A stretch of 51,736 nt of DNA, taken from the IMG/VR virus record IMGVR_UViG_2737471852_000002, positions 1-51,736 of that record; one strand, 5' to 3'. Under the pieces are notes generated by a model, which was not told the origin of the DNA, did no database searches, and worked only from the letters and a program-made list of their open reading frames with translations. Shown here piece by piece: positions 946-50,026 of this stretch (its first letter is position 1; every line of letters begins with the position of its first letter). The position numbers were made by a program, and so were the translations under genes. The stretch is from a virus. Taxonomy: Duplodnaviria; Heunggongvirae; Uroviricota; Caudoviricetes.

Positions 946-3123
946 TCAATCATCTTCTGGGAATGATGAACTTAATAGCGTAGCTTCTGCATATTGGTCG
1001 TAGATATTACTGCTAAAGGTCATAAAGCTGGTTTCATCTGGTTTAATGGCAACTTCACCACCAAGTGAAACTTTCACAGGCTCCTGAATACGTTTGCTCA
1101 AAGCACTAATTTCATCTCTCAGACTCTGAATATCTGCGCTGGTTAATGCTGAATCTTGCTTAATGTTGTTTAACTCTGGATGATTGAATCTTGCAATATT
1201 CATTGTGGCATTGTTAAACAATTCACCCATTGAACTAAAAATTTTATTCCATCCTTCGTTAATCATATTCGGTTTATTAGGGTCACCAGAATACACAGGA
1301 TTAAAGTCACTACCCACACCTACCCCAGATGGATGCATATTAGCGTTTTTGACTACTTCCTGATTCATAAAATCCAGTGCTTTCTTCAATGCATATAAAC
1401 CAAGAGTGACGCCTCTGATTTGTGGAATCATTGAAGCTAATGCTAACGCTGTTTCATAACCGTCATCAGCATAACCGATTGCAAGAGCACTACCTACACC
1501 ACCAGCTACACCTTTCAGTTTTCCACCACCTTTACCAGTAGCTACCTGACCAGCCACCTGATTAGCTCTTGTACCTAACGTTGTGATTGCTCTTGTCAGG
1601 TTCATAACCCCTGTAGTAGCACTGAATAGTGTCTTTGCAGATAACGCTATAGCAAGACCTTTGACAAAATTGATAAAACCATCACCGACTTCATCAAGTA
1701 GTTTTCGTTTAGTGTCATCAAGGCTGTAATAGAGCTGCTTAACCTGTAAAATCCAGCCTTCAATGTGATTGTTAAAGATACGGATGTCATCTACACCAGC
1801 TTTAAGCATGTCGATAAGTCCACCGATAGCATCACCAGCGATAGAAGAACTCATCCCCATTTCACTAAGCAGGTTACTCAGGCTGGATAAGAAGCCGTTT
1901 AGCTCATCCTGTGAACCTGAGAAGATTTTCACCATCGTGTCATCCCAGTTGTTTGCTAACTTACCTAAAGCTGTCTGGGTGCTCTTAGCGACTTCAGCCC
2001 AGCCACCCGCTTTATCAATCATCAAGCCCATCTGTTTAGCGACTTTAGGAAGAGTATCAGCGGAAAGAATCTTCCCGTCTTTCATCGCTTTATCAAGCTC
2101 TGTAGCAGTCATACCCAATGCTTCAGCGAACAGCTTAAATGCACCAGCCATACGGTCACCTAGCTGACCACGTAATTCCTCAGCCTGAATCTTGCCCTTA
2201 GAAGCCATCTGCTCAAAAGCTTTCAAAATGCCGTTTAGCTCGTCGTTAGAAAGCCCCATTAAGCGACTCATAGCCGTTGCATTACCAAATAGCTCCTGTG
2301 TCTGTTCCTGTGACATAGAACCCTGAGCACCTGCTGCAAACTTAGCGTAGCTTGATAGTCCTTCAGAGATATTAAGACCTGTCTTGTCTGCTAGATTTCG
2401 AATAAATACCTCAGCCTCAGAGGCTTTATCACCAAGTACAAACTTAGCGGCTCTCTGTGCGGAATCTCGTTTAAGACCTGCATTCATAATGGCCTTGTAA
2501 GCGTTAAGAGCACCCATCACAGAGTAAAATGCACCAGATAACTTAATTGCATTGCTTGCAAGATTATTAAATGCGTCGCTTGTATTACTAATGCTGGTGG
2601 ATGTATGACCTCTGGCTTTAGCAATTGCTTCTCGGACTGAAGAATTTAACTGAGCCAACTTCTCATTGAATTTTGAATTATCCATCTGACCAGCTTTAGC
2701 AGATAGCCCGTAAAACTGAGATTTGATGTATTTCTGCAAAATAGGGTCAAAGCCTTTTAGCTTGCTCATATTCGCTGAGTAAGCTGCTGTGATTGCTCTG
2801 TTTCCGCTAATTCGTGGCTGTCTTGGTTGTTTTGGAGGATTAACAGTGTCATTAAATCTGGTGGCAAACTGAAATGCTCTTGTGTTTCTTGCTCTCTGTT
2901 CAATCTTGTCAAAGGTCTTATTAAACTTCCTTTCAAGTTGCCCTAAAGAACTTGTCAGATTACTGTCAAGTTGCTTGGTATCGACCTTAAACGCTCTATT
3001 CAAATTACGTTCAATTCTTTGTGCTGACTGCAAAGCTGCCTTTTCAACTCTTTGCAAGCCCTTAATAACGCTCTCGCTGAAGCCTAGCTCAACGATAAAA
3101 CTATCAACTTTAAATTGTGCCAT
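946..3123 (-). CDS. tail tape measure-like protein (AT-rich module)
   Basis: 725-aa ORF, long helical and coiled-coil-like N-terminal half, glycine-rich hydrophobic segments (GKGGGKLKGVAGGVGSALAIGY), followed by a tail-protein-like gene; GAGGTG RBS before ATG at 3123. Confidence 0.55.
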   Translation of the reverse strand: MAQFKVDSFIVELGFSESVIKGLQRVEKAALQSAQRIERNLNRAFKVDTKQLDSNLTSSLGQLERKFNKTFDKIEQRARNTRAFQFATRFNDTVNPPKQPRQPRISGNRAITAAYSANMSKLKGFDPILQKYIKSQFYGLSAKAGQMDNSKFNEKLAQLNSSVREAIAKARGHTSTSISNTSDAFNNLASNAIKLSGAFYSVMGALNAYKAIMNAGLKRDSAQRAAKFVLGDKASEAEVFIRNLADKTGLNISEGLSSYAKFAAGAQGSMSQEQTQELFGNATAMSRLMGLSNDELNGILKAFEQMASKGKIQAEELRGQLGDRMAGAFKLFAEALGMTATELDKAMKDGKILSADTLPKVAKQMGLMIDKAGGWAEVAKSTQTALGKLANNWDDTMVKIFSGSQDELNGFLSSLSNLLSEMGMSSSIAGDAIGGLIDMLKAGVDDIRIFNNHIEGWILQVKQLYYSLDDTKRKLLDEVGDGFINFVKGLAIALSAKTLFSATTGVMNLTRAITTLGTRANQVAGQVATGKGGGKLKGVAGGVGSALAIGYADDGYETALALASMIPQIRGVTLGLYALKKALDFMNQEVVKNANMHPSGVGVGSDFNPVYSGDPNKPNMINEGWNKIFSSMGELFNNATMNIARFNHPELNNIKQDSALTSADIQSLRDEISALSKRIQEPVKVSLGGEVAIKPDETSFMTFSSNIYDQYAEATLLSSSFPEDD

Positions 3124-3137
3124 TGTTCATATTTCAC

Positions 3138-3177
3138 CTCTGTTAAGCGTGAGCTACGTAAAAAATAATTTTTGGTG
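3138..3177. repeat. 40-bp perfect direct repeat, copy 2
   Basis: identical to 865-904; lies 15 bp upstream of the tape-measure-like gene start. Confidence 0.85.
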
Positions 3178-3330
3178 GGTATATCTGTTCAGAAGATTTC
3201 ACGTAGCACATAGGATTCGATAGAAGACTATCTCATATACAAAAAAGGGAGAAACTACCGAATAATATCGATAATCTCTCCCCGTGTTATAGATTCGATA
3301 GAACCTATCTCATACACCCAACCAATTCTT

Positions 3331-3546
3331 TTAATGCATGACAAGATAATGTAGTTCCGTTTCACCTATGATTTGAGCATCAGAAGGAATACGGTCGATA
3401 CACCATTTTGGAATCTTGCGTGTTTTTGGTTTGCGTGAGGTGATAATTTGATGTTTGGTTTTAATTCTTAAGGCTGGCTTAGTTTGTAACTTTAAGTTTT
3501 CACAAACAGACTTAATAGTTTCATAGCGTTCTGTTAAATCAATCAT
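3331..3546 (-). CDS. hypothetical basic small protein
   Basis: 71-aa ORF, lysine/arginine-rich; no family recognised. Confidence 0.25.
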   Translation of the reverse strand: MIDLTERYETIKSVCENLKLQTKPALRIKTKHQIITSRKPKTRKIPKWCIDRIPSDAQIIGETELHYLVMH

Positions 3547-10851: not shown

Positions 10852-11334
10852 GGTTCGGCATTACCCGTTGGCGTGCCTGTTCCGTGGCCTTCCGCCACTC
10901 CGCCAACAGGCTGGCTGAAATGCAACGGGGCGGCTTTTTCTGCTGAAGAATACCCGGAACTGGCAAAGGTTTACCCGACAAATAAATTGCCTGATTTACG
11001 CGGTGAGTTTATTCGTGGCTGGGATGATGGAAGAGGGATTGATACTAACCGTAGCTTGCTTTCGTCACAGGGAGATACCATTCGGAATATAACAGGCTTT
11101 ATAAATGAAGTTAAAGGCACCATTGATACAGCAACTTTCAGGTTACAGACTGGTACTGGTGCTTTTGCCTTAGCATCTCAAGCTACGCGAAATATCTATA
11201 ATAACCTAGGCACATATGAAACAAAAAATACCCCTTACACAGGATTCAGTTTTGATGCATCCAGGGTTGTACCAACAGCATCAGAGAATCGCCCTCGAAA
11301 CATTGCATTTAACTATATCGTGAGAGCAGCATAA
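10852..11334 (+). CDS. alternative tail-fibre C-terminal cassette, currently in the unexpressed orientation
   Basis: begins at the crossover with ...GLGEGSALPVGVPVPWP...GWLKCNGAAFS...YPELAKVYP...DLRGEFIRGWDDGRG, the classic variable C-terminal domain of Mu S / lambda Stf-type fibres; no start codon of its own. Confidence 0.7.
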   Translation, partial: GSALPVGVPVPWPSATPPTGWLKCNGAAFSAEEYPELAKVYPTNKLPDLRGEFIRGWDDGRGIDTNRSLLSSQGDTIRNITGFINEVKGTIDTATFRLQTGTGAFALASQATRNIYNNLGTYETKNTPYTGFSFDASRVVPTASENRPRNIAFNYIVRAA

Positions 11335-11939
11335 TGGATAAAGCAATATTAAATAGTGAGCTTATTGCTACAAAGTCGGGGGATATTACCGTTTATAACT
11401 ATGATAGTGAGACGCAGGAATATATTTCAGCTTCAACTGAATATCTTGCCATTGGTGTCGGTATTCCTGCATATTCCTGTTTAGATGCCCCTGGCACATA
11501 TAAGGTGGGTTATGCTATCTGTCGTTCTGCAAATTTTAACTCATGGGAATATGTGCCAGACCATCGCGGTGAAATCGTCTATAGCACCAAAACTGGAGAG
11601 TCAAAAGAAATCACAGCTCCGGGTGATTACCCTGAAAATACCACAACTATCGCCCCGTTAACACCATACGATAAATGGGATGGTGAGAAATGGGTGACCG
11701 ATACTGAGGCACAGCATAGCGCCGCAGTAGACACGGCAGAAGCACAGCGTCAGTCACTGATTGATGCTGCAATGGCTTCCATCAGTCTGATTCAGCTGAA
11801 ATTACAGGCCGGACGGAAGCTGATGCAGGCAGAAACAACCCGGCTTAACGCCGTGCTGGATTACATTGACGCGGTGACGGCAACAGATACCAGCACCGCG
11901 CCTGATATTATTTGGCCTGCTTTCCCTGAGACTGATTAA
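11334..11939 (+). CDS. tail fibre assembly protein (Tfa/U-type) paired with the alternative cassette
   Basis: 201 aa, ATG overlaps the cassette stop; C-terminal LQAGRKL ... LDYIDAV ... WPAFPE typical of Tfa proteins. Confidence 0.75.
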   Translation: MDKAILNSELIATKSGDITVYNYDSETQEYISASTEYLAIGVGIPAYSCLDAPGTYKVGYAICRSANFNSWEYVPDHRGEIVYSTKTGESKEITAPGDYPENTTTIAPLTPYDKWDGEKWVTDTEAQHSAAVDTAEAQRQSLIDAAMASISLIQLKLQAGRKLMQAETTRLNAVLDYIDAVTATDTSTAPDIIWPAFPETD

Positions 11940-12129
11940 CCTCAATCAATATTGGTTCCCCTTTCTCATTAATTGTTAGCTCCATGCCCTGAGGAATTTC
12001 TGTCATAGTAAAAAACCAGTTGTCCTCTGGTAATTCAATAGCCCCGGTCACATCATGAAGACCGGGGATTACTTCAGTCAAAGTAACTGGATTAAACAGG
12101 CGCACAATAAACCCTCCAGGAAAAAGCAT
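11908..12129 (-). CDS. possible small tail-fibre chaperone for the currently expressed fibre tip
   Basis: 73-86 aa ORF directly after the fibre stop inside the invertible segment; no family recognised. Confidence 0.3.
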   Translation of the reverse strand: MLFPGGFIVRLFNPVTLTEVIPGLHDVTGAIELPEDNWFFTMTEIPQGMELTINEKGEPILIEVNQSQGKQAK

Positions 12130-40397: not shown

Positions 40398-40625
40398 TTA
40401 CTTCGCAATTCCTGGCTGGACGACATTCGGACGCCAGCTCTCCCAGTTAAAATTCACCCAGCGGCCACCGTTCATGGTCATGCGTTCCAACACCCGCTTG
40501 CCTAAAAGAGTGCTCATCGCTGCGAGATGATTTTCCCCAGTACTGCAGCGGATATCCTGAAATTTGCAGCCAGAATGCTGGCCGATGAAGCTAATAACGG
40601 CTTGTTTGCCATAGTTCTTTTTCAT
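40398..40625 (-). CDS. hypothetical small protein
   Basis: 75-aa ORF overlapping the helicase-loader stop. Confidence 0.35.
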
Positions 40626-41473
40626 GACCTGTTCTCCCGATAGCTATCCCAGGTAAACGAAATCGTGCAGCCGCCACCGTCGTTCATGCGGTCGATGACG
40701 CGCTCGCCGATAAACTGCGTCAACTCATTCTTTGGCAGGTTGCTGATCAGGATCGTCGGCTTAAGCTTTTCGTAACGGGTGTTGATGATTTCGAACATAA
40801 TCAGTTTTTCGGCATCGCTGCCGAACTGAACGCCAACCTCATCAACTATCAGCAGGTCTGGCCTGGTGAATTGGCGTATCACATCATCCTCGGTGCGCGT
40901 TGCTGTTTTTGACCAGGTCGATTTAAACTCCCGGGCAATTTTCAGTGCCGTCGTGAAAATGACTGAGCTTTGGTGCTGCTCAATCACATGACGGGCAATT
41001 GCCAGCGCAAGGTGGTTTTTACCAGTACCAGGCTTGCCGCACATAACCAACCCACCTCCCTGCTGAAGGCGATCCGTCCATTTCGAGGCGTATGCCTGGC
41101 AGACTCGCAATGCGCGCTCAGAATCCTTCCCAACCGGCTTGTAGCTGTCCAGAGTACATGTGGAAAAGCGCTCTGGTATTTCCAACTGGCAAAGCAGCCT
41201 TTCGACAGTTTGCTGGCGAACTCGCTTATCCCAGCGAGCCTTCTCATCCTTCAGAAATTTCAGTTCGTCTTCCAGACAGCCTGGGCAGCGTGTCGGCGGT
41301 GATGGCAGATTTATGATGCTGTTAGTCAGGATCCGCTTGCGCTGTTCATACTCGCCATGCTTTTCGCAACAGACACGCTCGATAACCAGTTCGCAATTCG
41401 GGATGTCTTCCGGTGGCTTGCTCAGTTGGTCAAGTATCCGCTCAATGGCAGTTATTTTTTCTTCCAGATCCAT
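40622..41473 (-). CDS. DnaC-like helicase loader (replication protein, functional analogue of lambda P)
   Basis: Walker A GKPGTGKNHLALAIA, Walker B LLIVDEVG; N-terminal Cys pairs; immediately downstream of the O-like gene. Confidence 0.8.
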   Translation of the reverse strand: MDLEEKITAIERILDQLSKPPEDIPNCELVIERVCCEKHGEYEQRKRILTNSIINLPSPPTRCPGCLEDELKFLKDEKARWDKRVRQQTVERLLCQLEIPERFSTCTLDSYKPVGKDSERALRVCQAYASKWTDRLQQGGGLVMCGKPGTGKNHLALAIARHVIEQHQSSVIFTTALKIAREFKSTWSKTATRTEDDVIRQFTRPDLLIVDEVGVQFGSDAEKLIMFEIINTRYEKLKPTILISNLPKNELTQFIGERVIDRMNDGGGCTISFTWDSYRENRS

Positions 41474-41475
41474 GC

Positions 41476-42330
41476 TCAGTCCCTCGCCCATGATGGGATT
41501 TCAGTCTGCCCGTAGTCCTTCCCTGCGAAATTTTCGGCAACTCGCGTCTGTTGGCGTGGTTGAGGCTTGGAACCCTTTGGCTCAAACAAGCCTTGCCAGC
41601 CATTGGCGATGCTCTGATTAATAATTTCGTCAGGGGTGTAGCCGTTCAGCCTGCAGCGGTCGAGCAACTTGATAGCTTGCGTCACGGTCTGCTGAGACTT
41701 GATCGGCTTTTTCAGGTCACGACGGTATGCCACCCATGACGACCAGATTTCTGCAGAAAGCCAGTCAGGCAACTTAACAGCTGACGCATCGAACGAAACC
41801 GCCCGGGGGGATTTAGGGGGGTTATTAATATTGTCTTTATTGTCTTTTGTATGTTTGTCTTTTGTGTTTACCTGATTCGGGTAATAGGCGTTACCTGATT
41901 CGGGTAAACTTTTCTTACCTGATTCGGGTAAATTTACCTCTTTCGGGTAAACATTATTTTTCTTACCTGATTCGGGTAATGTTTCCCATTCGCTGACCAC
42001 ATTATTAATACCGATATTCCGCCCGCTCTGAATAAAAATCCCACGCTTTACCAGAACACTTTTTGCAGCTGAGCACTTATGCGGGAGAATGCCGGTCAGC
42101 TCCGAGATCTGCTCGTTACTGACCCAGTCAGATTTCTTATTGAAGCCGTATGTTTTGCGCATGACGGCCATGAACACCAAAAGCTGATGCTGCGACAAAC
42201 CTGCATGCATGACAGCCTCAAGGAGCTCATTGGCGATACGCGTATAACCATCGTCGAGATCTGCCACGCGCAGCTCCTGTAGTGCCACGACAGGCACAGG
42301 GAAATTGATTACTTCGGCAGTATTTGCCAT
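41476..42330 (-). CDS. O: replication initiator O-like protein
   Basis: N-terminus ...VADLDDGYTRIANELLEA...RKTYGFNK... resembles lambda O; iterons embedded in the gene. Confidence 0.8.
   Translation of the reverse strand: MANTAEVINFPVPVVALQELRVADLDDGYTRIANELLEAVMHAGLSQHQLLVFMAVMRKTYGFNKKSDWVSNEQISELTGILPHKCSAAKSVLVKRGIFIQSGRNIGINNVVSEWETLPESGKKNNVYPKEVNLPESGKKSLPESGNAYYPNQVNTKDKHTKDNKDNINNPPKSPRAVSFDASAVKLPDWLSAEIWSSWVAYRRDLKKPIKSQQTVTQAIKLLDRCRLNGYTPDEIINQSIANGWQGLFEPKGSKPQPRQQTRVAENFAGKDYGQTEIPSWARD
41868..41979. repeat. replication origin iterons (5 copies of a 17-bp repeat) inside the O-like gene
   Basis: four exact copies of TTACCTGATTCGGGTAA plus one degenerate copy, flanked at 41821-41867 by an AT-rich tract, as in ori-lambda. 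Confidence 0.8.
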
Positions 42331-42415: not shown

Positions 42416-42637
42416 TCATGCTTCAAAATCACCTTTCTCTCCCGGCCTGTTAGAAATCAGGATGGCCAGCAGTAGCGACATGTTCGGCAGCAGACTTTCC
42501 CGCCAGCGACTCACCGTCGACTTATTCACTCCGGCCACTTTGGCGATATTCGTGGTTCCCAGTTCAGCTATCTGGCTGTGTAACCAGCTTTCTATCCTGC
42601 GAGCCTCCACTTTGTTGCGTGTCGTTGAACTCTCCAT
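42416..42637 (-). CDS. cII: CII-like transcriptional activator
   Basis: 73 aa; ...ARRIESWLHSQIAELGTTNIAKVAGVNKSTVSRWRESLLPNMSLLLAIL... parallels lambda CII. Confidence 0.65.
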   Translation of the reverse strand: MESSTTRNKVEARRIESWLHSQIAELGTTNIAKVAGVNKSTVSRWRESLLPNMSLLLAILISNRPGEKGDFEA

Positions 42638-42716: not shown

Positions 42717-42908
42717 TTAATCAGGATTTCTGTTATGTGGGAAAGGCTTGATCTCCTCAGCCTTAATTTTTCCATCAGGCAGGGTGTTAACGAAAATCTT
42801 CCGCCCTACCCGGATAGCTTTACTAATTGCGGTCTGGTGAACGCCGATGGCATCAGCAGCTCTTGCCTGTCCAACTTCGTCAACGTATTCAGCTAAAGAA
42901 ATTTTCAT
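42717..42908 (-). CDS. cro: Cro repressor (lambda-Cro-like)
   Basis: 63 aa from ATG at 42908 (AGGAG RBS); GVHQTAISKAIRVGRKIFVNTLPDGKIKAEEIKPFPHN closely parallels lambda Cro. Confidence 0.8.
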   Translation of the reverse strand: MKISLAEYVDEVGQARAADAIGVHQTAISKAIRVGRKIFVNTLPDGKIKAEEIKPFPHNRNPD

Positions 42909-42939
42909 GTGGTTAGCTCCTATCAACTCACGAGTAAAC

Positions 42940-42979
42940 AATACCACAAGTATTAAACATTGCAATACCGCTAGTATTT
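42940..42979. promoter_or_regulatory. OR-like operators between cro and cI
   Basis: 15-bp palindromes AATACcacaaGTATT and AATACcgctaGTATT about 24 bp apart in the cro-cI intergenic region. Confidence 0.55.
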
Positions 42980-43012
42980 TTAAAATAAGAACATTGGTAT
43001 TACTATTTGAAA

Positions 43013-43723
43013 ATGGAAAAGAAAAAGACACTGACATCGGCTCAGATCGCTGACGCAGAAAGGCTGAAAGCCCTCTATGAAGCCAAGAAAAAAGAGCTTG
43101 GGATAACACAGCAATCAATAGCTGACATGCTAGACATATCTCAGGGGGGCGTTGGGCATTACTTGAATGGCAGGAATGCCCTTAATGCTGCCGTGGCTGC
43201 TGTTTTTGCCAGAGCCCTCCAGGTGGATGTCTCTGATTTTAGCCCCAGCCTTGCGAAAGAAATATCTGCAATGAGTGCTTCCGCTACATCGAATGCCAAG
43301 TATGCAGGCCAGTACACCCCAGGCATTAAATACCCTGTATTAAGCAAGATTCAGGCTGGGCATTGGTCGGAAGCGTGCGAGCCGTATGCACTTAAAGATA
43401 TCGATCTATGGCTAGAATCAGACGCTCACATCCAGGGGGATGCGTTCTGGTTGTTGGTCGAGGGGGAATCCATGACTGCCCCGGTCGGGCTCAGCATACC
43501 AGAGGGTACCTACGTTTTGTTTGATACCGGCCGAGAGCCAGTAAATGGCAGCCTTGTGATCGCAAAGCTATCCGAATCAAACGAAGCGACATTCAAAAAG
43601 CTGATTATTGATGGGGGCCAGAAGTACCTGAAGGGCTTAAACCCTCAATGGCCATTGGTTCCCATCAACGGAAACTGTCGAATCATTGGTGTGGCAGTAG
43701 AAACTAAGTTAAGGCTTGTGTGA
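43013..43723 (+). CDS. cI: CI-type repressor with S24 (LexA-like) autocleavage domain
   Basis: N-terminal HTH (QQSIADMLDISQGGVGHYLNG), C-terminal ...LVEGESMTAP...GSLVIAKL...ATFKKL...; divergent from cro. Confidence 0.85.
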   Translation: MEKKKTLTSAQIADAERLKALYEAKKKELGITQQSIADMLDISQGGVGHYLNGRNALNAAVAAVFARALQVDVSDFSPSLAKEISAMSASATSNAKYAGQYTPGIKYPVLSKIQAGHWSEACEPYALKDIDLWLESDAHIQGDAFWLLVEGESMTAPVGLSIPEGTYVLFDTGREPVNGSLVIAKLSESNEATFKKLIIDGGQKYLKGLNPQWPLVPINGNCRIIGVAVETKLRLV

Positions 43724-43836
43724 TCGGCAGCATGCCGCAGACGTACAGGAAGCATGGGTAGCCACTTACGTTCGTTTTATCCTTGATAAAATGAATTACA
43801 ACGTATTAAAAAATATTGAATTTTGGAGATAAACAA

Positions 43837-44103
43837 TTGACTGAACGAAACCCGTCACTTACCCCTCAGCACATGACTGCGACCTCAACCATTTTGACTC
43901 CTGGAAAGGATGAGGTTGTAATTACGTTTTACTCTCATGAATTTACTTATCTTTTACCAGAAAACGTTCAACCGCAAACTGGCATTCAGGTTAAAGTAGA
44001 TCTGAGGCCTGAGATTGGTATTTCACTTACAACAGACCAAGCAATTGCGCTTACGAAGGCTCTTAAAACCAATTTGGAAGCGAATGGACTTTGGAAACAG
44101 TAA
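43837..44103 (+). CDS. hypothetical protein, first gene of the cassette downstream of cI (rexA/rexB position)
   Basis: about 88 aa; start ambiguous (TTG at 43816 or 43837, GGAG RBS); no family recognised. Confidence 0.35.
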   Translation: MTERNPSLTPQHMTATSTILTPGKDEVVITFYSHEFTYLLPENVQPQTGIQVKVDLRPEIGISLTTDQAIALTKALKTNLEANGLWKQ

Positions 44104-44159
44104 ATCCTGGTTCGGATAATACAACTGTTACGCCTTCAAGTGGTAAGGCGGGATTTGTT

Positions 44160-44639
44160 ATGCCGGGAATTATGGTTAGCGCAGCATTAGCCGCGTCGAT
44201 GGCGCCTTCCTATGGAAGCGTACCTCAGTACCAAATTGCTTTTGAAGATGCTAGTCTTACCAGTAGACCATATGACAAATTTACCAGTCTGCCGCTGGAT
44301 AAAGAGACCGAATCACATGGAAGCAGTGTAAACTTGGAGGCCGATGTGAGCTCAGCAAGCAGAGAGGAGATCGACGCAAAACTGGCCTTGACAAAGGCTG
44401 AGATTGAACTATCTCAGGCTCATAACTTTTCGTCAATTGAAAAGCTATTGATTGAAGTTAAAGGAGAAATAGCGTCTTTACGGGGAGAGCTGTCTGGTAA
44501 TAAAGATGCTGTCTCTGGGCAAATAGACGGGCTAAAAACATCTATTTCAACGATGCAATGGATGGTGGGGACTGTTCTTGCCATGATGGGTATTGCTGTC
44601 GCTATTTTAGCCATTCCCGGAATCAATAAACTCCTGTGA
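44160..44639 (+). CDS. bitopic membrane protein with central coiled coil, second gene of the cassette downstream of cI
   Basis: about 159 aa from ATG at 44160 (ORF opens at 44091); N-terminal hydrophobic segment, coiled coil, C-terminal TM (MQWMVGTVLAMMGIAVAILAIPGI); overlaps the upstream gene. Confidence 0.4.
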   Translation: MPGIMVSAALAASMAPSYGSVPQYQIAFEDASLTSRPYDKFTSLPLDKETESHGSSVNLEADVSSASREEIDAKLALTKAEIELSQAHNFSSIEKLLIEVKGEIASLRGELSGNKDAVSGQIDGLKTSISTMQWMVGTVLAMMGIAVAILAIPGINKLL

Positions 44640-44647
44640 TCACCCAA

Positions 44648-44670
44648 CCCGGCCACCGCGCCGGGTTTTT
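44648..44670 (+). terminator. intrinsic terminator ending the cI / downstream-cassette transcription unit
   Basis: cccggc-caccgc-gccggg followed by TTTTT. Confidence 0.7.
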
Positions 44671-44742
44671 ACTGCCCTACTCTTCCCGCAACATCAGCAC
44701 ATCCAGTGCCAGCTCCACAGCCAGATCGACCTGGTCTTCCTG

Positions 44743-44880
44743 TCACAACACCTGAATCATCTCTATCAGCGCCTCTCTTGAGGGCTCGTGCTTCTCAACC
44801 AGCAGCTGCATAACCGCTATCCCGATAACCTGCGCTATCTGCGGGTGCATTTCTGCGAAAAACTCATCCTCATTTGACAT
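44743..44880 (-). CDS. possible 45-aa small protein between the terminator and OL
   Basis: AAAGGGG RBS 8 nt before ATG at 44880; MSNEDEFFAEMHPQIAQVIGIAVMQLLVEKHEPSREALIEMIQVL; below the ORF-track cutoff. Confidence 0.3.
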   Translation of the reverse strand: MSNEDEFFAEMHPQIAQVIGIAVMQLLVEKHEPSREALIEMIQVL

Positions 44881-44951
44881 GCCAACACCCCTTTATGATG
44901 TTTTTTTGAGCATAACAGCACTTTTTACAAAAATAAATTAACTTTAAAATC

Positions 44952-45020
44952 ATACCTTTAGTATTTTTATTAAATATCATAATACTGGCGGTATTGATAT
45001 AAAATAATACCCGGAGTATT
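44952..45020. promoter_or_regulatory. OL-like operators / pL region
   Basis: AATACtggcgGTATT, AATACccggaGTATT and ATACctttaGTAT share the AATAC-N5-GTATT design of the sites between cro and cI. Confidence 0.55.
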
Positions 45021-45132
45021 ATCACCTCATCCAAACAACGCACACAAATGCGCAGATGGCCCAAAACTCCGCTGGCCGGCGATAAGGCGATAAGGGTGAA
45101 ACGTCCTCAGGATGTAAAGGATGGATTGATTT

Positions 45133-45853: not shown

Positions 45854-45992
45854 ACGAAAACCCCGCGCAAGGCGGGATTCACGTCCGGTGCCACCGACCA
45901 AAGTTACACCGGAATTTATACCAAACCAAAAAACATCCAATGGGCGCTATCTCTGGCACGGGGATTCTAACACTCAAAAAAGAGGATCTCAC

Positions 45993-48902
45993 ATGGAATT
46001 TTTCCATCTGATAAAAGCCAGTCAGAAGTCTGGCAAGAAAGATGCAGTGATTTGGTTCACTGCGAAAAGTGTAGCGCGCGCCAATCTCCAACTCGATGTG
46101 GCACTGGAAGAAGCCGGAATTGAAGAAACTGGCCGCGGTAAAGATTATGCCAAACCAATCCGCACCGATTTCCCGGTATATGACGACCTGCCGGAAGAAG
46201 GCGCAGTGGATTACACCTGGTGCGAACGCTACGAACTGCAGAACGATGACCGCACCTGGCTGCCAAAAGTCACAGCTGAAAACTCTGACGAGAAAACGGC
46301 TCAGACCGTTGATAGTCACATAACTACTGAGTCAACGCTGCCAGAAACCGCTGGCATCACGCTGGACGAACACGACGACGACTCAACCCTCTACCCGGTA
46401 GTGCAGATGCCGTTTCGTAAGCAACTGCTTTCCCAGTTCACCGCCGACGAACTGCGCCACCACGTAACCCGCGAAGAGTACGAAGCTATCGGCGCGCTGG
46501 AGATGGACACTGATAACAGTTACGTCCAGAACTTGCTGTTAGCTGCTGAGAACTGCCCGGAAGTGAAGGGTTACGACACCAAAGACCTGTGGCGCTACAC
46601 CGATGCCATTCGCAAAGTGTTCAGCCAGGACAAGCGTCACGAACTCGCGCTGGTACTCCGTTTCACCAGAATGTGGGCGGCGACTGATTACATTGACCGT
46701 GGCATCCTGGCGCGTGAATGGGCTGCCGGTAATCACATCAGTAGTGTTCAGCGTACTGATTCCGGAACCAATGCCAACGGCGGTTACGTCACTGACCGTG
46801 GACCTGATACATACCATACCCTTGACACTCTCGATTTAGAGATTGCATGTGCCCTTCTGCCTATGGACTTCAACCACTTCGAGATCCCGGGCAGCATTCT
46901 TCGTCGCGCTAAAGAAATCGTGACCAAAAAAGAAGAACCGTGGAAATCATGGAGCAGCATTCTGCGCAATCAACCCGGCGTTCTTGGCGTTAACCGCACA
47001 GCTATTTTTAACCTGATACGTATCGCGCCGGAAAATATTCATCTAACTCCTGTCGCTCACCTGGAGTTTGTTAACCGGACCATGACTGCTGCGTTTAATG
47101 CTGCTGTTGAGTTATTGCCATTGCATGAAGCTGAGCCCGCAACACAGGAAATTCCCCAACCTGAAAGTAAGGAGTCTCCACGCAAACCCTTCTGCACTCA
47201 CGAAGAGAACCTGCAACGCGTACGTGAAGAAGAAGCACGCCGCCGCGCAGAGGAAGCGACAGCACAACCACATAAAGCCGAACAAGAACTGGTTAAAAAT
47301 GTCGGCAACGGAATATTCGATGTTACGGCTTTACTGCAGAACTCAGCAACTCATGGCACGAAACAGGCTACGGAAACCACCAGCAATGTGCAGGTTCAAG
47401 AAACTGTCAGTGATGAAAAAAATGTTGGTAATGAAATGCAGTCAGGCGAAAGCAGTCTGGAAACTGGTGAAGAGTCACATCCCGGCCAGCAGGCCGATGT
47501 AAACCAAAATACGGAATCTGTCGCTCAAAATAGCGATTCTGTAAACCAGACTGAACCAGTTTTGGCACACGTCGAGCCAGAGGCGCAATCTGACGAACAA
47601 GCTGTTTTTTACCCCGATTACTTCGAGCCTGGGCGCTATGAAGGTCTGCCGAACGAGGTTTACCACGCTGCCAACGGAATCAGTTCCACCCAGGTAAAAG
47701 ATGCGCGCGTTTCGCTGATGTACTTCAATGCGCGCCACGTTGAGAAAACCATCGTCAAAGAGCGCTCCTCAGTGCTGGACATGGGAAACCTGGTACATGC
47801 GCTGGCGTTGCAGCCAGAACAGCTCGATGAAGAATTTAGCGTTGAACCCGTAATTCCGGAAGGTGCATTTACCACCACGGCAACGATCCGCGCGTTTATT
47901 GATGAGTACAACGCCAGCCTGCCAGCGCAACTGAGCGCAGACGATATCAAAGCTTTGCTGGATGAATACAACGCCACCCTGCCAGCGCTGGTGCCGCTGG
48001 GCGCTAGCCTGGATGAAACGGCGCAGAACTATATGGCGCTGCCAGCTGAATTCCAACGTATCGATGCAGATCAGAAGAAGACAGCAACAGCAATGAAGGC
48101 GTGCATCAAAGAGTACAACGCCACCCTGCCAGCGCAGATTAAAACCAGCGGCAGCCGCGACGCACTACTCGAACAACTTGCGATTATCAATCCTGACCTG
48201 GTCGCGCAGGAAGCTCAGAAGCTGCAACCGCTGAAAGTCTCTGGCACGAAGGCCGATCTGATTCAGGCCGTGAAGGCAGTCAAACCAGATGCAGTGTTCG
48301 CCGACGAGCTGCTCGATGCTTGGCGCAACAACCCGGAAGGGAAAGTGCTGGTTACCCACCAGCAACTTGCCACCGCGCAGGCAATTCAGTCAGCACTGCT
48401 CTCGCACCCGACCGCAGGCATGCTGCTAACCCACCCGAGCCGCGCCGTTGAGGTGAGCTACTTTGGCTTTGACGAGGAGACGGGACTGGAAGTTCGTGTG
48501 CGCCCTGACCTTGAGATCGACCTAGACGGCGTGCGTATCGGTGCTGACCTGAAAACCATCAGCATGTGGAATGTTAAGCAGGAAAGCCTGCGCGCCAGGC
48601 TACACCGGGAAATTATTGAACGTGATTATCACCTGAGCGCGGCTATGTACTGCGAAACCGCAGCGCTGGATCAGTTCTTCTGGATTTTCGTCAACAAAGA
48701 CGAGAACTACCACTGGATCGCCATCATCGAGGCATCCGCTGAACTACTGGAGCTGGGTATGCTCGAGTACCGCAAAGCGATGCGCAATATCGCAACCGGA
48801 TTCGACACAGGTGAATGGCCAGCGCCAATCACTGCTGACTACACCGACGAACTGAACGACTTCGACCTGCGCCGCCTTGAAGCGCTGCGTACTCAGGCAT
48901 AA
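45993..48902 (+). CDS. recE: RecE-like exonuclease VIII
   Basis: N-terminal and central regions parallel Rac RecE as I recall it (VIWFTAKSV..., FTRMWAATDYIDRGILAREWAAGNHISSVQRTDSGTNANGG); C-terminal nuclease domain; AAGAGGA RBS before ATG at 45993. Confidence 0.8.
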   Translation: MEFFHLIKASQKSGKKDAVIWFTAKSVARANLQLDVALEEAGIEETGRGKDYAKPIRTDFPVYDDLPEEGAVDYTWCERYELQNDDRTWLPKVTAENSDEKTAQTVDSHITTESTLPETAGITLDEHDDDSTLYPVVQMPFRKQLLSQFTADELRHHVTREEYEAIGALEMDTDNSYVQNLLLAAENCPEVKGYDTKDLWRYTDAIRKVFSQDKRHELALVLRFTRMWAATDYIDRGILAREWAAGNHISSVQRTDSGTNANGGYVTDRGPDTYHTLDTLDLEIACALLPMDFNHFEIPGSILRRAKEIVTKKEEPWKSWSSILRNQPGVLGVNRTAIFNLIRIAPENIHLTPVAHLEFVNRTMTAAFNAAVELLPLHEAEPATQEIPQPESKESPRKPFCTHEENLQRVREEEARRRAEEATAQPHKAEQELVKNVGNGIFDVTALLQNSATHGTKQATETTSNVQVQETVSDEKNVGNEMQSGESSLETGEESHPGQQADVNQNTESVAQNSDSVNQTEPVLAHVEPEAQSDEQAVFYPDYFEPGRYEGLPNEVYHAANGISSTQVKDARVSLMYFNARHVEKTIVKERSSVLDMGNLVHALALQPEQLDEEFSVEPVIPEGAFTTTATIRAFIDEYNASLPAQLSADDIKALLDEYNATLPALVPLGASLDETAQNYMALPAEFQRIDADQKKTATAMKACIKEYNATLPAQIKTSGSRDALLEQLAIINPDLVAQEAQKLQPLKVSGTKADLIQAVKAVKPDAVFADELLDAWRNNPEGKVLVTHQQLATAQAIQSALLSHPTAGMLLTHPSRAVEVSYFGFDEETGLEVRVRPDLEIDLDGVRIGADLKTISMWNVKQESLRARLHREIIERDYHLSAAMYCETAALDQFFWIFVNKDENYHWIAIIEASAELLELGMLEYRKAMRNIATGFDTGEWPAPITADYTDELNDFDLRRLEALRTQA
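47904..48135 (+). repeat. three near-identical 25-bp intragenic repeats in recE
   Basis: gaNtacaacgccaNcctgccagcgc at about 47904, 47964 and 48111, each encoding EYNA(S/T)LPA. Confidence 0.7.
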
Positions 48903-48907
48903 GGGGA

Positions 48908-50026
48908 ATGATGATGGAAAACACGAATATCGTAACCGCTGAACAGCAGACTCCAAACACGATCTCAGCCAGCAATGCCATTTTCAACGTGCAGGCTTTA
49001 ACCCAGCTTCAGTCTGTCGCCGGGTTGATGGCACAGGCAGCCGTAACGGTGCCTGAGCACCTCCGCGGCAATCCGGCAGACTGCATGGCCATCATCATGC
49101 AGGCGATGCAGTGGGGTATGAACCCTTACGCCGTGGCGCAAAAGACGCACCTGGTTAACGGTGTCCTGGGATACGAAGCGCAACTGGTTAATGCGGTGAT
49201 CTCCAGCTCAAACGCCATCGTTGGCCGCTTTCACTATGAGTACGAGGGCGACTGGTCGAAATGTGCCAGCAGCCGCGAGATAACCGTTAAAAAGCCTGCG
49301 AAAGGTGGCGGGACGTACGACAAGAAAGAAATGGTACGCGGTTGGGAAAGTGCTGATGAACAAGGACTGTCGGTACGGGTAGGTGCCGTTATTCGCGGTG
49401 AAAGTGATATCACCTGGGGAGAGCCTGTTTTCCTCTCCAGCGTAATCACACGTAATTCTCCACTTTGGGTATCAAACCCGAAACAGCAGATCGCTTATCT
49501 GGCACTCAAATACTGGGCGCGCCTGTATTGCCCTGCAGTTGTTCTTGGTGTGTACACCCCTGATGAGATTGAACAGCGCACAGAAAAAGAGATCAACCCA
49601 ACGCCGCAACGCGTTAGCCTGGCTGATATCTCAGGTGACACCGTCACAACCACGCAAAGCGCACAGGAATCGTCGGTAAATGTCGACTCTCTTGCCGATG
49701 ATTTCCGCGAACGCATCGAATCTGCTCAGGACGTGGATAGCGCCAAATCGCTGCGTGCCGACATTGAAACGGCGAAAGCTACGCTGGGATCCGCACTATT
49801 CACCGAGCTGAAAAACAAAGCCGTAAAGCGTTATTACCTAGTGGATGCACGCAACAAGGTTGAGGAGGCTATTAAATCCCTGCCCCAGCCCGACGAGCCG
49901 CATGCAGCCGAACGGTTCGCTGAAGCCGAGCGCATGCTTGCATCTTCAAAGCGTCACTTAGGCGATGAACTGCACGATCAATTCAGCATCACCCTGGCGG
50001 ATATGAAACCGGAATACGTGGCCTGA
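48908..50026 (+). CDS. single-strand annealing protein of the RecT/Red-beta superfamily
   Basis: 372 aa immediately downstream of recE; ...NPADCMAIIMQAMQWGMNPYAVAQKTHLVNGVLGYEAQL... parallels the Red-beta/RecT core. Confidence 0.65.
   Translation: MMMENTNIVTAEQQTPNTISASNAIFNVQALTQLQSVAGLMAQAAVTVPEHLRGNPADCMAIIMQAMQWGMNPYAVAQKTHLVNGVLGYEAQLVNAVISSSNAIVGRFHYEYEGDWSKCASSREITVKKPAKGGGTYDKKEMVRGWESADEQGLSVRVGAVIRGESDITWGEPVFLSSVITRNSPLWVSNPKQQIAYLALKYWARLYCPAVVLGVYTPDEIEQRTEKEINPTPQRVSLADISGDTVTTTQSAQESSVNVDSLADDFRERIESAQDVDSAKSLRADIETAKATLGSALFTELKNKAVKRYYLVDARNKVEEAIKSLPQPDEPHAAERFAEAERMLASSKRHLGDELHDQFSITLADMKPEYVA

What the first reader, a model, noticed from the sequence alone, without database searches (positions are those of the whole stretch)
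43816..44670. Two-gene cassette of unknown function at the rexA/rexB position, directly downstream of cI and ended by its own terminator
In lambda-like phages the slot immediately downstream of cI on the repressor transcript is expressed in the lysogen and typically carries exclusion or abortive-infection cargo. Here it holds two overlapping ORFs I cannot place in any family: an ~88-aa soluble protein and an ~159-aa protein with an N-terminal hydrophobic segment, a central coiled coil and a C-terminal transmembrane helix. They bear no resemblance to RexA/RexB or SieB as I remember them. A clean intrinsic terminator at 44648-44670 closes the unit. The membrane-anchored coiled-coil architecture fits a membrane-acting effector paired with a sensor or partner protein.
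Basis: partly seen in the sequence, partly recalled or inferred. Interest (0 to 1): 0.65.

Follow-up and report, generated by a model that had tools for sequence, protein, structure and literature searches.

The report
Uncharacterised two-gene cargo beside phage repressor
Two real, overlapping genes sit right after the repressor gene of a Klebsiella prophage, where phage lambda keeps its rexA/rexB exclusion genes; they match genes 49 and 48 of the model phage HK97, whose function nobody has reported, and they most likely protect the lysogen against other phages by acting at the cell membrane.

Summary
Two translationally coupled genes follow cI (43007-43723): ORF1 (43837-44103, 88 aa) and ORF2 (44091-44639, 182 aa). 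A hairpin plus T-run (44646-44670) closes the unit.

Both genes are under purifying selection and lie between the operator clusters oR and oL. They are not family-less. They are orthologues of coliphage HK97 gp49 and gp48 (PHROG 26809 and 5820), both of unknown function.

In sister Klebsiella phages with the same flanks, the slot holds RexA/RexB or a ParA-like ATPase. The terminator belongs to that shared backbone, not to the cassette.

Across 99 fetched loci, the coiled-coil, C-terminally anchored membrane protein has a small upstream partner gene in 98. In about 90% of cases a repressor gene comes next upstream.

The partner and the N-terminal region of the membrane protein are exchanged together. 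The coiled-coil/TM part recombines independently of them.

No Pfam, NCBIfam, PADLOC, PDB or fold match assigns a function, and I found no paper that does.

Best reading, inferred and not shown: a lysogen-expressed, Rex-like sensor plus membrane-effector exclusion module. This can be tested directly in HK97.

The parts
43007..43723 (+). cI-type repressor gene (context; presumed to share the pRM transcript with the cassette)
   Evidence: HTH_3 E = 1.2e-8 and Peptidase_S24 E = 2.7e-22. phrog_4 transcriptional repressor, E = 7e-49.
43761..44645 (+). Exchangeable cargo segment; both edges are recombination junctions with the conserved backbone
   Evidence: Megablast against phages: only 43720-43760 and 44645-44700 are shared with other Klebsiella phages. 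The alignment shows homology resuming exactly at the hairpin. GC is 39-48% here, against 52% in cI and 54% just downstream.
43825..43829 (+). Shine-Dalgarno GGAGA for ORF1
   Evidence: Read from the sequence. It lies 7 nt before TTG 43837 and is conserved in L013 and L015.
43837..44103 (+). ORF1: 88-aa cytoplasmic partner protein, orthologue of HK97 gp49
   Evidence: phrog_26809 E = 1.2e-24. 45% identical to HK97 gp49 over 88 aa. dN/dS 0.16. The AlphaFold2 model is beta-beta-beta-alpha with mean pLDDT 65.6. The sequence has no signal peptide or TM segment.
44091..44639 (+). ORF2: 182-aa tail-anchored coiled-coil membrane protein, orthologue of HK97 gp48
   Evidence: phrog_5820 E = 2.4e-25. The 13-nt overlap with ORF1 is conserved. 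dN/dS 0.08.
44091..44357 (+). ORF2 aa 1-89: variable, predicted-disordered N-terminal region that co-varies with the partner type. It includes the marginal hydrophobic motif PGIMVSAALAASMAPSYG (aa 25-42; the highest-scoring Kyte-Doolittle window spans aa 20-38).
   Evidence: pLDDT below 50 for aa 1-83. Alignable only among proteins paired with gp49-like partners. Kyte-Doolittle mean at most 1.68.
44358..44558 (+). ORF2 aa 90-156: conserved helical coiled-coil region, running from the SREEIDAKL motif to GQIDGLK..STMQ
   Evidence: A single helix at aa 91-174 in the AlphaFold2 model. E93, A96, L98, G147 and Q156 are at least 90% conserved in 87 family representatives.
44559..44624 (+). ORF2 aa 157-178: C-terminal transmembrane helix WMVGTVLAMMGIAVAILAIPGI, followed by a 4-aa tail (NKLL, aa 179-182)
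   Evidence: Kyte-Doolittle mean 2.33. 83 of 87 family representatives have exactly one such segment, at about 75% of their length.
44646..44670 (+). Intrinsic terminator (tIMM-like) that closes the cI-ORF1-ORF2 unit; part of the conserved backbone
   Evidence: Delta-G -14.6 kcal/mol, z = -2.5. Identical in phages carrying RexAB or a ParA-like gene, apart from one loop base in one of them.
42940..42978 (.). oR operators, 2 x AATAC-N5-GTATT (context)
   Evidence: Pattern search: 5 of the 6 window matches fall in two clusters, with 1.0 match expected by chance.
44951..45020 (.). oL operators, 3 x AATAC-N5-GTATT, with a pL-like promoter at 44994-45022 (context; marks the far edge of the immunity region)
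   Evidence: TTGATA-17-TATTAT, 10 of 12 matches.

Best explanation
The cassette is the Klebsiella version of the HK97 gene 49 / gene 48 module. This is a conserved, repressor-linked two-gene cargo in the rexA/rexB slot of lambdoid phages.

ORF1 is a small cytoplasmic protein. ORF2 is an inner-membrane protein anchored by a single C-terminal helix. Its long coiled-coil stalk and disordered N-terminal region face the cytoplasm.

The two genes are translationally coupled and most likely read from the repressor transcript in the lysogen.

Proposed mechanism: the partner docks on the N-terminal region of the membrane protein and holds or controls it. A cue from an infecting phage changes this complex. 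The conserved coiled-coil/TM part then oligomerises and disturbs the membrane, or a membrane-bound step of infection, so that the superinfecting phage is excluded. This would be a Rex-like sensor plus membrane effector built from unrelated proteins.

Shown here: the genes are real, the synteny, allelism with RexAB, the modular co-variation, and the one-TM tail-anchor pattern.

Inferred only: expression from pRM, partner-to-N-terminus binding, the defence role, and membrane permeabilisation.
For: - Orthology to HK97 gp49/gp48, with the same 13-nt overlap and the same position between cI and N.
- The slot is bracketed by oR and oL. No terminator-like or promoter-like site was flagged between cI and ORF1.
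- With the same flanks, sister Klebsiella phages carry RexA/RexB or a ParA-like ATPase.
- In 99 fetched loci the membrane gene has an upstream partner in 98. Of 57 distinct next-upstream proteins, 48 have HTH_3, 42 have Peptidase_S24 and 1 is Arc/Mnt-like.
- At least three unrelated partner classes occur: gp49-like, phrog_5881-like, and a zinc-ribbon class with 2 x CxxC.
- The partner and the N-terminal region travel together, while the coiled-coil/TM part recombines separately. L005 has a C-terminal part 77% identical to the window but an unrelated partner and N-terminus. KY271400 has a homologous partner and N-terminus but only 27% identity in the C-terminal part.
- 83 of 87 family representatives have one TM segment near the C-terminus, followed by a Pro/Gln-rich tail.
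- Strong purifying selection on both genes.
- Literature: the cI-N interval is a mosaic hotspot that holds RexAB and BstA (PMC8585504), Stk in 933W and Hex in 434 (PMC3564112).
Against: - No homology to any protein of known or candidate defence systems in PADLOC 2.0.
- No Pfam or NCBIfam family beyond generic coiled-coil hits below cut-off.
- No PDB sequence match and no fold match.
- The AlphaFold2 models are weak: pTM 0.18 for ORF2 and 0.40 for ORF1.
- The TM helix has few polar residues, so nothing in it speaks for a pore.
- Transcription in the lysogen was not measured.
- No experiment on HK97 gp48/gp49 was found.
- Position alone does not prove defence. Both RexA and 434 Hex also act on the lysis-lysogeny switch.
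Confidence: 0.4

Rival explanations
1. Superinfection exclusion at the entry step. The tail-anchored protein sits in the inner membrane and blocks DNA injection by incoming siphophages, as HK97 gp15 or P22 SieA do. The partner serves as an assembly or stability factor rather than a sensor.
For: Membrane location is predicted. Many family members carry a 17-59 aa Pro/Gln/Ala-rich tail after the TM that could reach into the periplasm. In L024, L026 and L027 the pair sits at the end of the tail-gene region next to Arc/Mnt-like genes. From my own knowledge, that is where P22 keeps sieA.
Against: The window protein has only 4 residues after the TM helix (7 after the 19-residue scoring window), so almost nothing is exposed outside the cytoplasm. 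The diversification lies in the cytoplasmic partner and the N-terminus, not in the outside-facing tail. HK97 already has gp15 for this job (PMC3594210).
Confidence: 0.17
2. A lysogeny-switch or induction modulator rather than a defence. The pair would tune repressor cleavage or the lysis-lysogeny decision, for example by tethering a factor to the membrane. The comparison is to 434 Hex and to the RexB-independent role of RexA.
For: Tight linkage to repressors of several unrelated types (S24-type cI, a short 130-aa HTH repressor, Arc/Mnt-like). Precedents from the same slot: PMC3564112 (434 Hex) and bioRxiv 10.1101/2021.04.19.439022 (RexA).
Against: The same membrane module is combined with many different repressors and immunity types, which speaks against a repressor-specific interaction. 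Neither protein has a recognisable DNA-binding or RecA-related domain.
Confidence: 0.12
3. A toxin-antitoxin-like addiction module, or a lysogenic-conversion factor that changes host membrane physiology, with no role against phages.
For: A small upstream gene overlapping a downstream membrane protein resembles the antitoxin-toxin gene order. The window-type and HK97-type clusters are common in Enterobacteriaceae genomes.
Against: No similarity to known toxin-antitoxin families. The partner has no DNA-binding domain for autoregulation. The module has no recognisable promoter of its own and relies on the repressor operon.
Confidence: 0.1
4. The ORFs are non-functional remnants or annotation artefacts.
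For: They are annotated only as hypothetical proteins. The start codons are TTG.
Against: dN/dS is 0.08-0.16. The gene pair is conserved, with a conserved overlap, down to 45% identity. About 260 family representatives exist in 1.84 billion proteins.
Confidence: 0.01

Closest known systems
Coliphage HK97 genes 49 and 48 (NP_037734, NP_037733; PHROG 26809 and 5820)
   Same: ORF1 is 45% identical to gp49 over its full length. ORF2 shares with gp48 the N-terminal motif, the coiled coil and the C-terminal TM. The 13-nt gene overlap is the same, and so is the position between cI and the pL/N region.
   Different: The C-terminal part is only about 47% identical over 64 aa. The window protein lacks the roughly 50-aa Pro/Gln/Ser-rich tail after the TM in gp48. 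The spacer after cI is 113 nt here against about 425 nt in HK97. Neither pair has a reported function.
Lambda RexA/RexB abortive-infection system
   Same: Same slot downstream of cI, ahead of a terminator and oL. Same gene order, with the soluble protein first and the membrane protein second. Literally allelic in sister Klebsiella phages.
   Different: No sequence similarity. RexA is 279 aa and RexB is a 4-TM protein. Here the soluble protein is an 88-aa beta/alpha protein and the membrane protein is a single-pass, tail-anchored coiled coil. Function here is untested.
HK542 / HK244 immunity-region pair (YP_007151771 and YP_007151770; Degnan et al. 2007 sequences)
   Same: The membrane protein belongs to the same family (phrog_5820). 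It occupies the same slot after a lambda-type cI and has an overlapping upstream partner.
   Different: The partner is an unrelated 144-aa protein (phrog_5881). The N-terminal region of the membrane protein is unrelated too.
CCDC90-like / DUF1640 (PF07798; the MCUR1 family)
   Same: Same overall architecture of a coiled coil followed by one C-terminal TM helix. Weak profile hits in 30 of 87 family representatives.
   Different: The window protein scores 11.6 bits against a 33.5-bit cut-off. The other representatives I looked at individually are also below cut-off. The hits sit alongside other generic coiled-coil families, so homology is not established. MCUR1 is a mitochondrial scaffold (PMC7519068).
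Other repressor-adjacent prophage defences: BstA (BTP1), Stk (933W), Hex (434)
   Same: Encoded directly downstream of the prophage repressor and expressed in the lysogen (PMC8585504, PMC3564112).
   Different: These are single proteins with unrelated domains. There is no sequence relationship.

Membership tests
HK97 gp49/gp48-type module (PHROG 26809 + PHROG 5820) | Small partner homologous to gp49 | tested here: met
   phrog_26809 E = 1.2e-24. 45% identity to HK97 gp49 over 88 aa, with 36 invariant columns in a 5-sequence alignment.
HK97 gp49/gp48-type module (PHROG 26809 + PHROG 5820) | Membrane protein with the conserved SREE..DAKL coiled coil and a QW-led C-terminal TM | tested here: met
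   phrog_5820 E = 2.4e-25. Invariant S90, R91, E93, L98, G147, Q156 and W157. One TM at aa 157-178.
HK97 gp49/gp48-type module (PHROG 26809 + PHROG 5820) | Overlapping gene pair directly downstream of the prophage repressor | tested here: met
   The 13-nt overlap is identical in layout to HK97. cI lies immediately upstream. The same arrangement is seen for 48-52 of 57 distinct upstream proteins.
Lambda RexAB | RexA homologue | tested here: not met
   No PADLOC RexA hit for ORF1 or ORF2. The same model scores E = 1.7e-109 on the sister phage's RexA.
Lambda RexAB | RexB homologue (4-TM protein) | tested here: not met
   No PADLOC RexB hit. ORF2 has one strong TM segment, not four.
Lambda RexAB | Located between cI and the tIMM terminator / oL | tested here: met
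Lambda RexAB | Excludes T4 rII and other phages by membrane depolarisation | not testable with these tools
   Needs plating and membrane-potential assays.
SieB / other Pfam- or PADLOC-listed exclusion proteins | Profile match to a known exclusion or defence family | tested here: not met
   No hit at E <= 1 in Pfam, PADLOC or NCBIfam for either protein, apart from sub-threshold chance-level hits: coiled-coil families for ORF2, PriA_3primeBD and FAM186A_PQQAQ for ORF1.
CCDC90-like / DUF1640 (PF07798) | Score at or above Pfam gathering cut-off (33.5 bits) | tested here: not met
   11.6 bits, E = 0.25.
Intrinsic (Rho-independent) terminator | GC-rich hairpin directly followed by a T-run | tested here: met
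   8-bp stem (6 G-C pairs), 6-nt loop, T5. Delta-G -14.6 kcal/mol, z = -2.5.
Type II toxin-antitoxin | Antitoxin with a DNA-binding domain and a toxin from a known family | tested here: not met
   Neither protein matches an HTH, RHH, AbrB or toxin family.

The most novel reading that the evidence does not exclude
The phrog_5820 proteins and their swappable partners form a previously unrecognised, widespread class of repressor-linked prophage immunity systems. A conserved, tail-anchored coiled-coil membrane effector would be coupled, through a variable N-terminal docking region, to interchangeable cytoplasmic sensor proteins of at least three unrelated folds. Each sensor would tune the lysogen against a different set of phages. 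HK97 gp49/gp48 would be the model example.
Probability: 0.35. Interest if true: 0.75.

Novelty: new variant of a known kind. Interest (0 to 1): 0.55.

Why it matters
If the module excludes phages, it adds a compact (about 0.8 kb) membrane-acting defence family. That family is common in Klebsiella, E. coli, Salmonella and Citrobacter prophages and is invisible to current defence finders, which matters for phage therapy against Klebsiella.

Its modular build, with one conserved effector and several unrelated partners, would give a natural system for asking how sensors are swapped onto an effector.

The orthologous pair sits in HK97, a phage with full genetics. That makes a question open since the HK97 genome was published in 2000, namely what genes 48 and 49 do, directly testable.

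If the module is not a defence, it still marks a conserved repressor-linked function of lambdoid lysogens that nobody has explained.

Tried and rejected
- Pfam, NCBIfam and PADLOC scans of both proteins, of HK97 and HK542 counterparts, and of all partner classes gave no informative family.
- A Pfam scan of 87 family representatives and of the 10 longest relatives, looking for domain fusions, gave only generic coiled-coil families.
- PDB sequence search: the best hit is 8qox_B ("Conserved membrane protein"), E = 0.011 with heavy compositional bias. I rejected it as coiled-coil/TM bias. Nothing was found for ORF1.
- AlphaFold2 gave ORF2 pTM 0.18 (one helix plus disorder) and ORF1 pTM 0.40.
- Foldseek of the ORF1 model against BFVD and PDB gave no match at E <= 0.001.
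- I tested whether the roughly 100-aa partners of the L016, L009 and L021 type are distant gp49 homologues. hhalign probability is 5%, so this is not supported.
- A scan of species-representative genomes found one relative only, in Sodalis.
- Rfam found nothing in the whole window.
- Eight literature searches found no function for HK97 gp48/gp49. Juhala 2000, Degnan 2007, Cumby 2012 and Brenes & Laub 2025 are not held.
- The internal promoter-like site at 44091-44120 and the terminator-like site at 44131-44150 are at chance level, so I did not count them as features.
- I considered a signal-peptide reading of ORF2 aa 20-38 and dropped it. The stretch is only marginally hydrophobic, follows an 18-19 residue N-terminal region, has no conserved AXA cleavage site in homologues, and is absent from most of the family.

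Full report
**What is in the sequence.**
The window is a complete lambdoid prophage. Its best DNA match is Klebsiella phage ST15-VIM1phi2.1, 99.3% identical across the cassette.

Around the finding the layout is as follows:
- DnaC-like gene, 40622-41491 (-)
- O, 41476-42330 (-)
- cII, 42416-42637 (-)
- cro, about 42717-42919 (-)
- cI, 43007-43723 (+)
- the two ORFs
- a hairpin terminator
- a small minus-strand gene
- a pL-like promoter
- RecE-like and RecT genes, then the integrase

The operator motif AATAC-N5-GTATT occurs twice between cro and cI (42940-42978) and three times at 44951-45020. That is 5 of the 6 matches in the window, against 1.0 expected by chance. The cassette therefore lies inside the immunity region between oR and oL, exactly where lambda has rexA and rexB.

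**The two genes.**
ORF1 is open from 43816. Homologues begin at the in-frame TTG at 43837, which is preceded by GGAGA, giving 88 aa.

ORF2 begins at TTG 44091 and overlaps the end of ORF1 by 13 nt. The same xTG-GAA-A overlap is found in every gp49-type pair examined, with ATG in HK97 and GTG in L004. The protein is therefore 182 aa rather than about 159 aa.

Against a homologue 83-89% identical in protein, dN/dS is 0.16 for ORF1 and 0.08 for ORF2. Both are genes under constraint.

The hairpin at 44646-67 plus T5 folds at -14.6 kcal/mol (z = -2.5). The consensus scan flagged no terminator-like or promoter-like site between cI and ORF1. Co-transcription with cI is therefore plausible, but it was not measured.

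**Identity.**
Neither protein matches Pfam, NCBIfam or PADLOC. Both match PHROG families of unknown function: phrog_26809 and phrog_5820.

A tblastn search of phage genomes led to coliphage HK97. Its gp49 (88 aa) is 45% identical to ORF1. Its gp48 (216 aa) shares with ORF2 the N-terminal motif (IIVSATLAA..SPYG..QYQ), the coiled coil and the C-terminal TM helix. The two HK97 genes overlap by the same 13 nt and lie between cI (gp50) and N (gp47).

All database members of the clusters I looked up (window type, HK97 type, HK542 type) are named "hypothetical protein". The HK97 type occurs on at least 1000 contigs of E. coli, Salmonella and Citrobacter. The window type occurs on hundreds of Klebsiella and E. 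coli contigs.

Eight full-text searches and several targeted reads found no functional statement about these genes. The key older papers are not in the library.

**The slot is a cargo hotspot.**
Only the last 40 nt around the cI stop codon (43720-43760) and the sequence from the hairpin onward (44645 and beyond) are shared with other Klebsiella phages. Between the same flanks:
- ST101-KPC2phi6.1 carries RexA and RexB, confirmed by PADLOC at E = 1.7e-109 and 1.3e-60.
- ST11-VIM1phi8.2 carries a ParA-like ATPase.
- Phage 6 LV-2017 carries an unannotated, divergent gp49/gp48-like pair.

Homology between these phages resumes exactly at the hairpin. The terminator is therefore the backbone's tIMM equivalent, not the cassette's own.

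Published work describes this cI-N interval as a mosaic hotspot that holds RexAB and BstA (PMC8585504). It also holds Stk in 933W and Hex in 434 (PMC3564112).

**The family and its anatomy.**
A profile search of 1.84 billion representative proteins found 262 relatives of ORF2 at E <= 1e-3, and 87 at E <= 1e-10. Nearly all are 130-270 aa. Their only Pfam hits are generic coiled-coil families, namely Baculo_PEP_C, CCDC90-like, NPV_P10 and DUF1664. The ones I inspected individually are below cut-off.

Eighty-three of 87 have exactly one strong hydrophobic segment, at about 75% of their length. It is followed by a tail of 1-59 aa rich in Pro, Gln, Ala and Ser.

AlphaFold2 gives a disordered N-terminal 83 residues and one continuous helix at aa 91-174 (pLDDT 55-78, pTM 0.18). 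The conserved positions are the SREE(I/L)DAKL start of the helix, G147 and the QW that leads into the TM.

ORF1 is predicted as three beta-strands plus a C-terminal helix (pLDDT 65.6, pTM 0.40). It has no fold match in BFVD or PDB.

**Context census.**
I examined 99 fetched loci, a few of which are contigs fetched twice. The membrane gene is preceded by a partner ORF in 98 of them. Of the 57 distinct proteins encoded next upstream, 48 carry HTH_3, 42 carry Peptidase_S24, 16 carry Phage_CI_repr and one is Arc/Mnt-like.

The few exceptions are L024, L026, L027 and L105. In L024, L026 and L027 the pair lies at the end of the tail-gene region beside Arc/Mnt-like genes.

**Modularity.**
The partners fall into at least three unrelated classes:
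- gp49-like, 87-101 aa
- phrog_5881-like, about 144 aa
- a zinc-ribbon class of 100-131 aa with two CxxC pairs

A proposed link between gp49-like partners and the roughly 100-aa L016-like partners was not supported (hhalign probability 5%).

The N-terminal region of the membrane protein is alignable only among proteins that share a partner class. The C-terminal coiled-coil/TM part follows a different history:
- L005 has a C-terminal part 77% identical to the window's, but an unrelated partner and N-terminus.
- HK97 and phage 6 LV-2017 have homologous partners (41-46% identity) and homologous N-termini, but C-terminal parts only 47% and 27% identical.

The simplest reading is that the partner and the N-terminal region form one interacting unit that is exchanged as a block onto a conserved effector.

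**Interpretation.**
Position, allelism with RexAB, tight repressor linkage, a cytoplasmic variable part and a conserved membrane part together favour a lysogen-expressed exclusion module of the sensor plus membrane-effector type.

None of that is direct evidence. No experiment exists, and the structure models are weak. The TM helix carries no obvious pore-lining residues.

Alternatives remain open: an entry block, a modulator of the lysogenic switch, or a toxin-antitoxin-like or conversion function. I put about 0.55-0.6 on some anti-phage role and 0.4 on the specific Rex-like mechanism.

**Verdict.**

The cassette is a new member of the HK97 gp49/gp48 family, which is known as ORFs but uncharacterised. 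As a system it would be a new variant of the known kind "repressor-linked prophage exclusion cargo". It deserves an experiment, and HK97 offers the easiest route.

Noticed in passing
window 44677-44880 (-): A small conserved gene (phrog_3946) lies between the terminator and oL on the opposite strand. The window copy has an in-frame TGA (44743-44745) where homologues in sister phages have Trp. It therefore encodes 45 aa instead of 67, with the rest of the frame still intact up to a stop beside the hairpin. A promoter-like site on the minus strand (45003-44976) overlaps an oL operator. The gene is kept in the RexAB-, ParA-like- and LV-2017-carrying phages, though not in the closest relative ST15-VIM1phi2.1, whose sequence diverges downstream of about 44730. 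Function unknown.
   Followed up: partly
window 42940-42978 and 44951-45020: Candidate repressor operators AATAC-N5-GTATT: two copies at oR and three at oL. They account for 5 of the 6 matches in the window, with 1.0 expected by chance.
   Followed up: yes
window 45888-50026 (+): The pL operon carries a 1004-aa RecE-like protein (Exonuc_VIII N-terminal domain plus a C-terminal PDDEXK DUF3799 domain) followed by RecT. Sister Klebsiella phages have Gam/Bet/Exo at this place. No N-peptide-type antiterminator was recognised among the two ORFs tested after pL.
   Followed up: partly
L031 2052-2917 (KY271400.1, about 11235-12100): Klebsiella phage 6 LV-2017 has an unannotated gp49/gp48-like pair (92 aa + 199 aa) directly after its C2 repressor gene, within the same flanks as the window.
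   Followed up: yes
window 44091-44120 (+): A promoter-like site, TTGGAA-18-GATAAT (9 of 12 matches), lies at the ORF1/ORF2 junction. It would give a transcript encoding only the 159-aa form that starts at ATG 44160, which recalls lambda pLIT inside rexA. The match is at chance level (7 sites found against 4.5 expected), so it stays a lead only.
   Followed up: no
L002 2875-3951 (MK448234.1): The ParA-like AAA_31 ATPase (358 aa) that fills the same slot in phage ST11-VIM1phi8.2 has no PADLOC match. It is another uncharacterised candidate cargo of this hotspot.
   Followed up: partly
L024, L026, L027 (IMG/VR contigs), about 2400-3450: In some non-enterobacterial-looking prophages, the same membrane-protein family with zinc-ribbon or beta-rich partners lies after tail-region genes, next to Arc/Mnt-like repressor genes, rather than after a cI gene.
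   Followed up: partly
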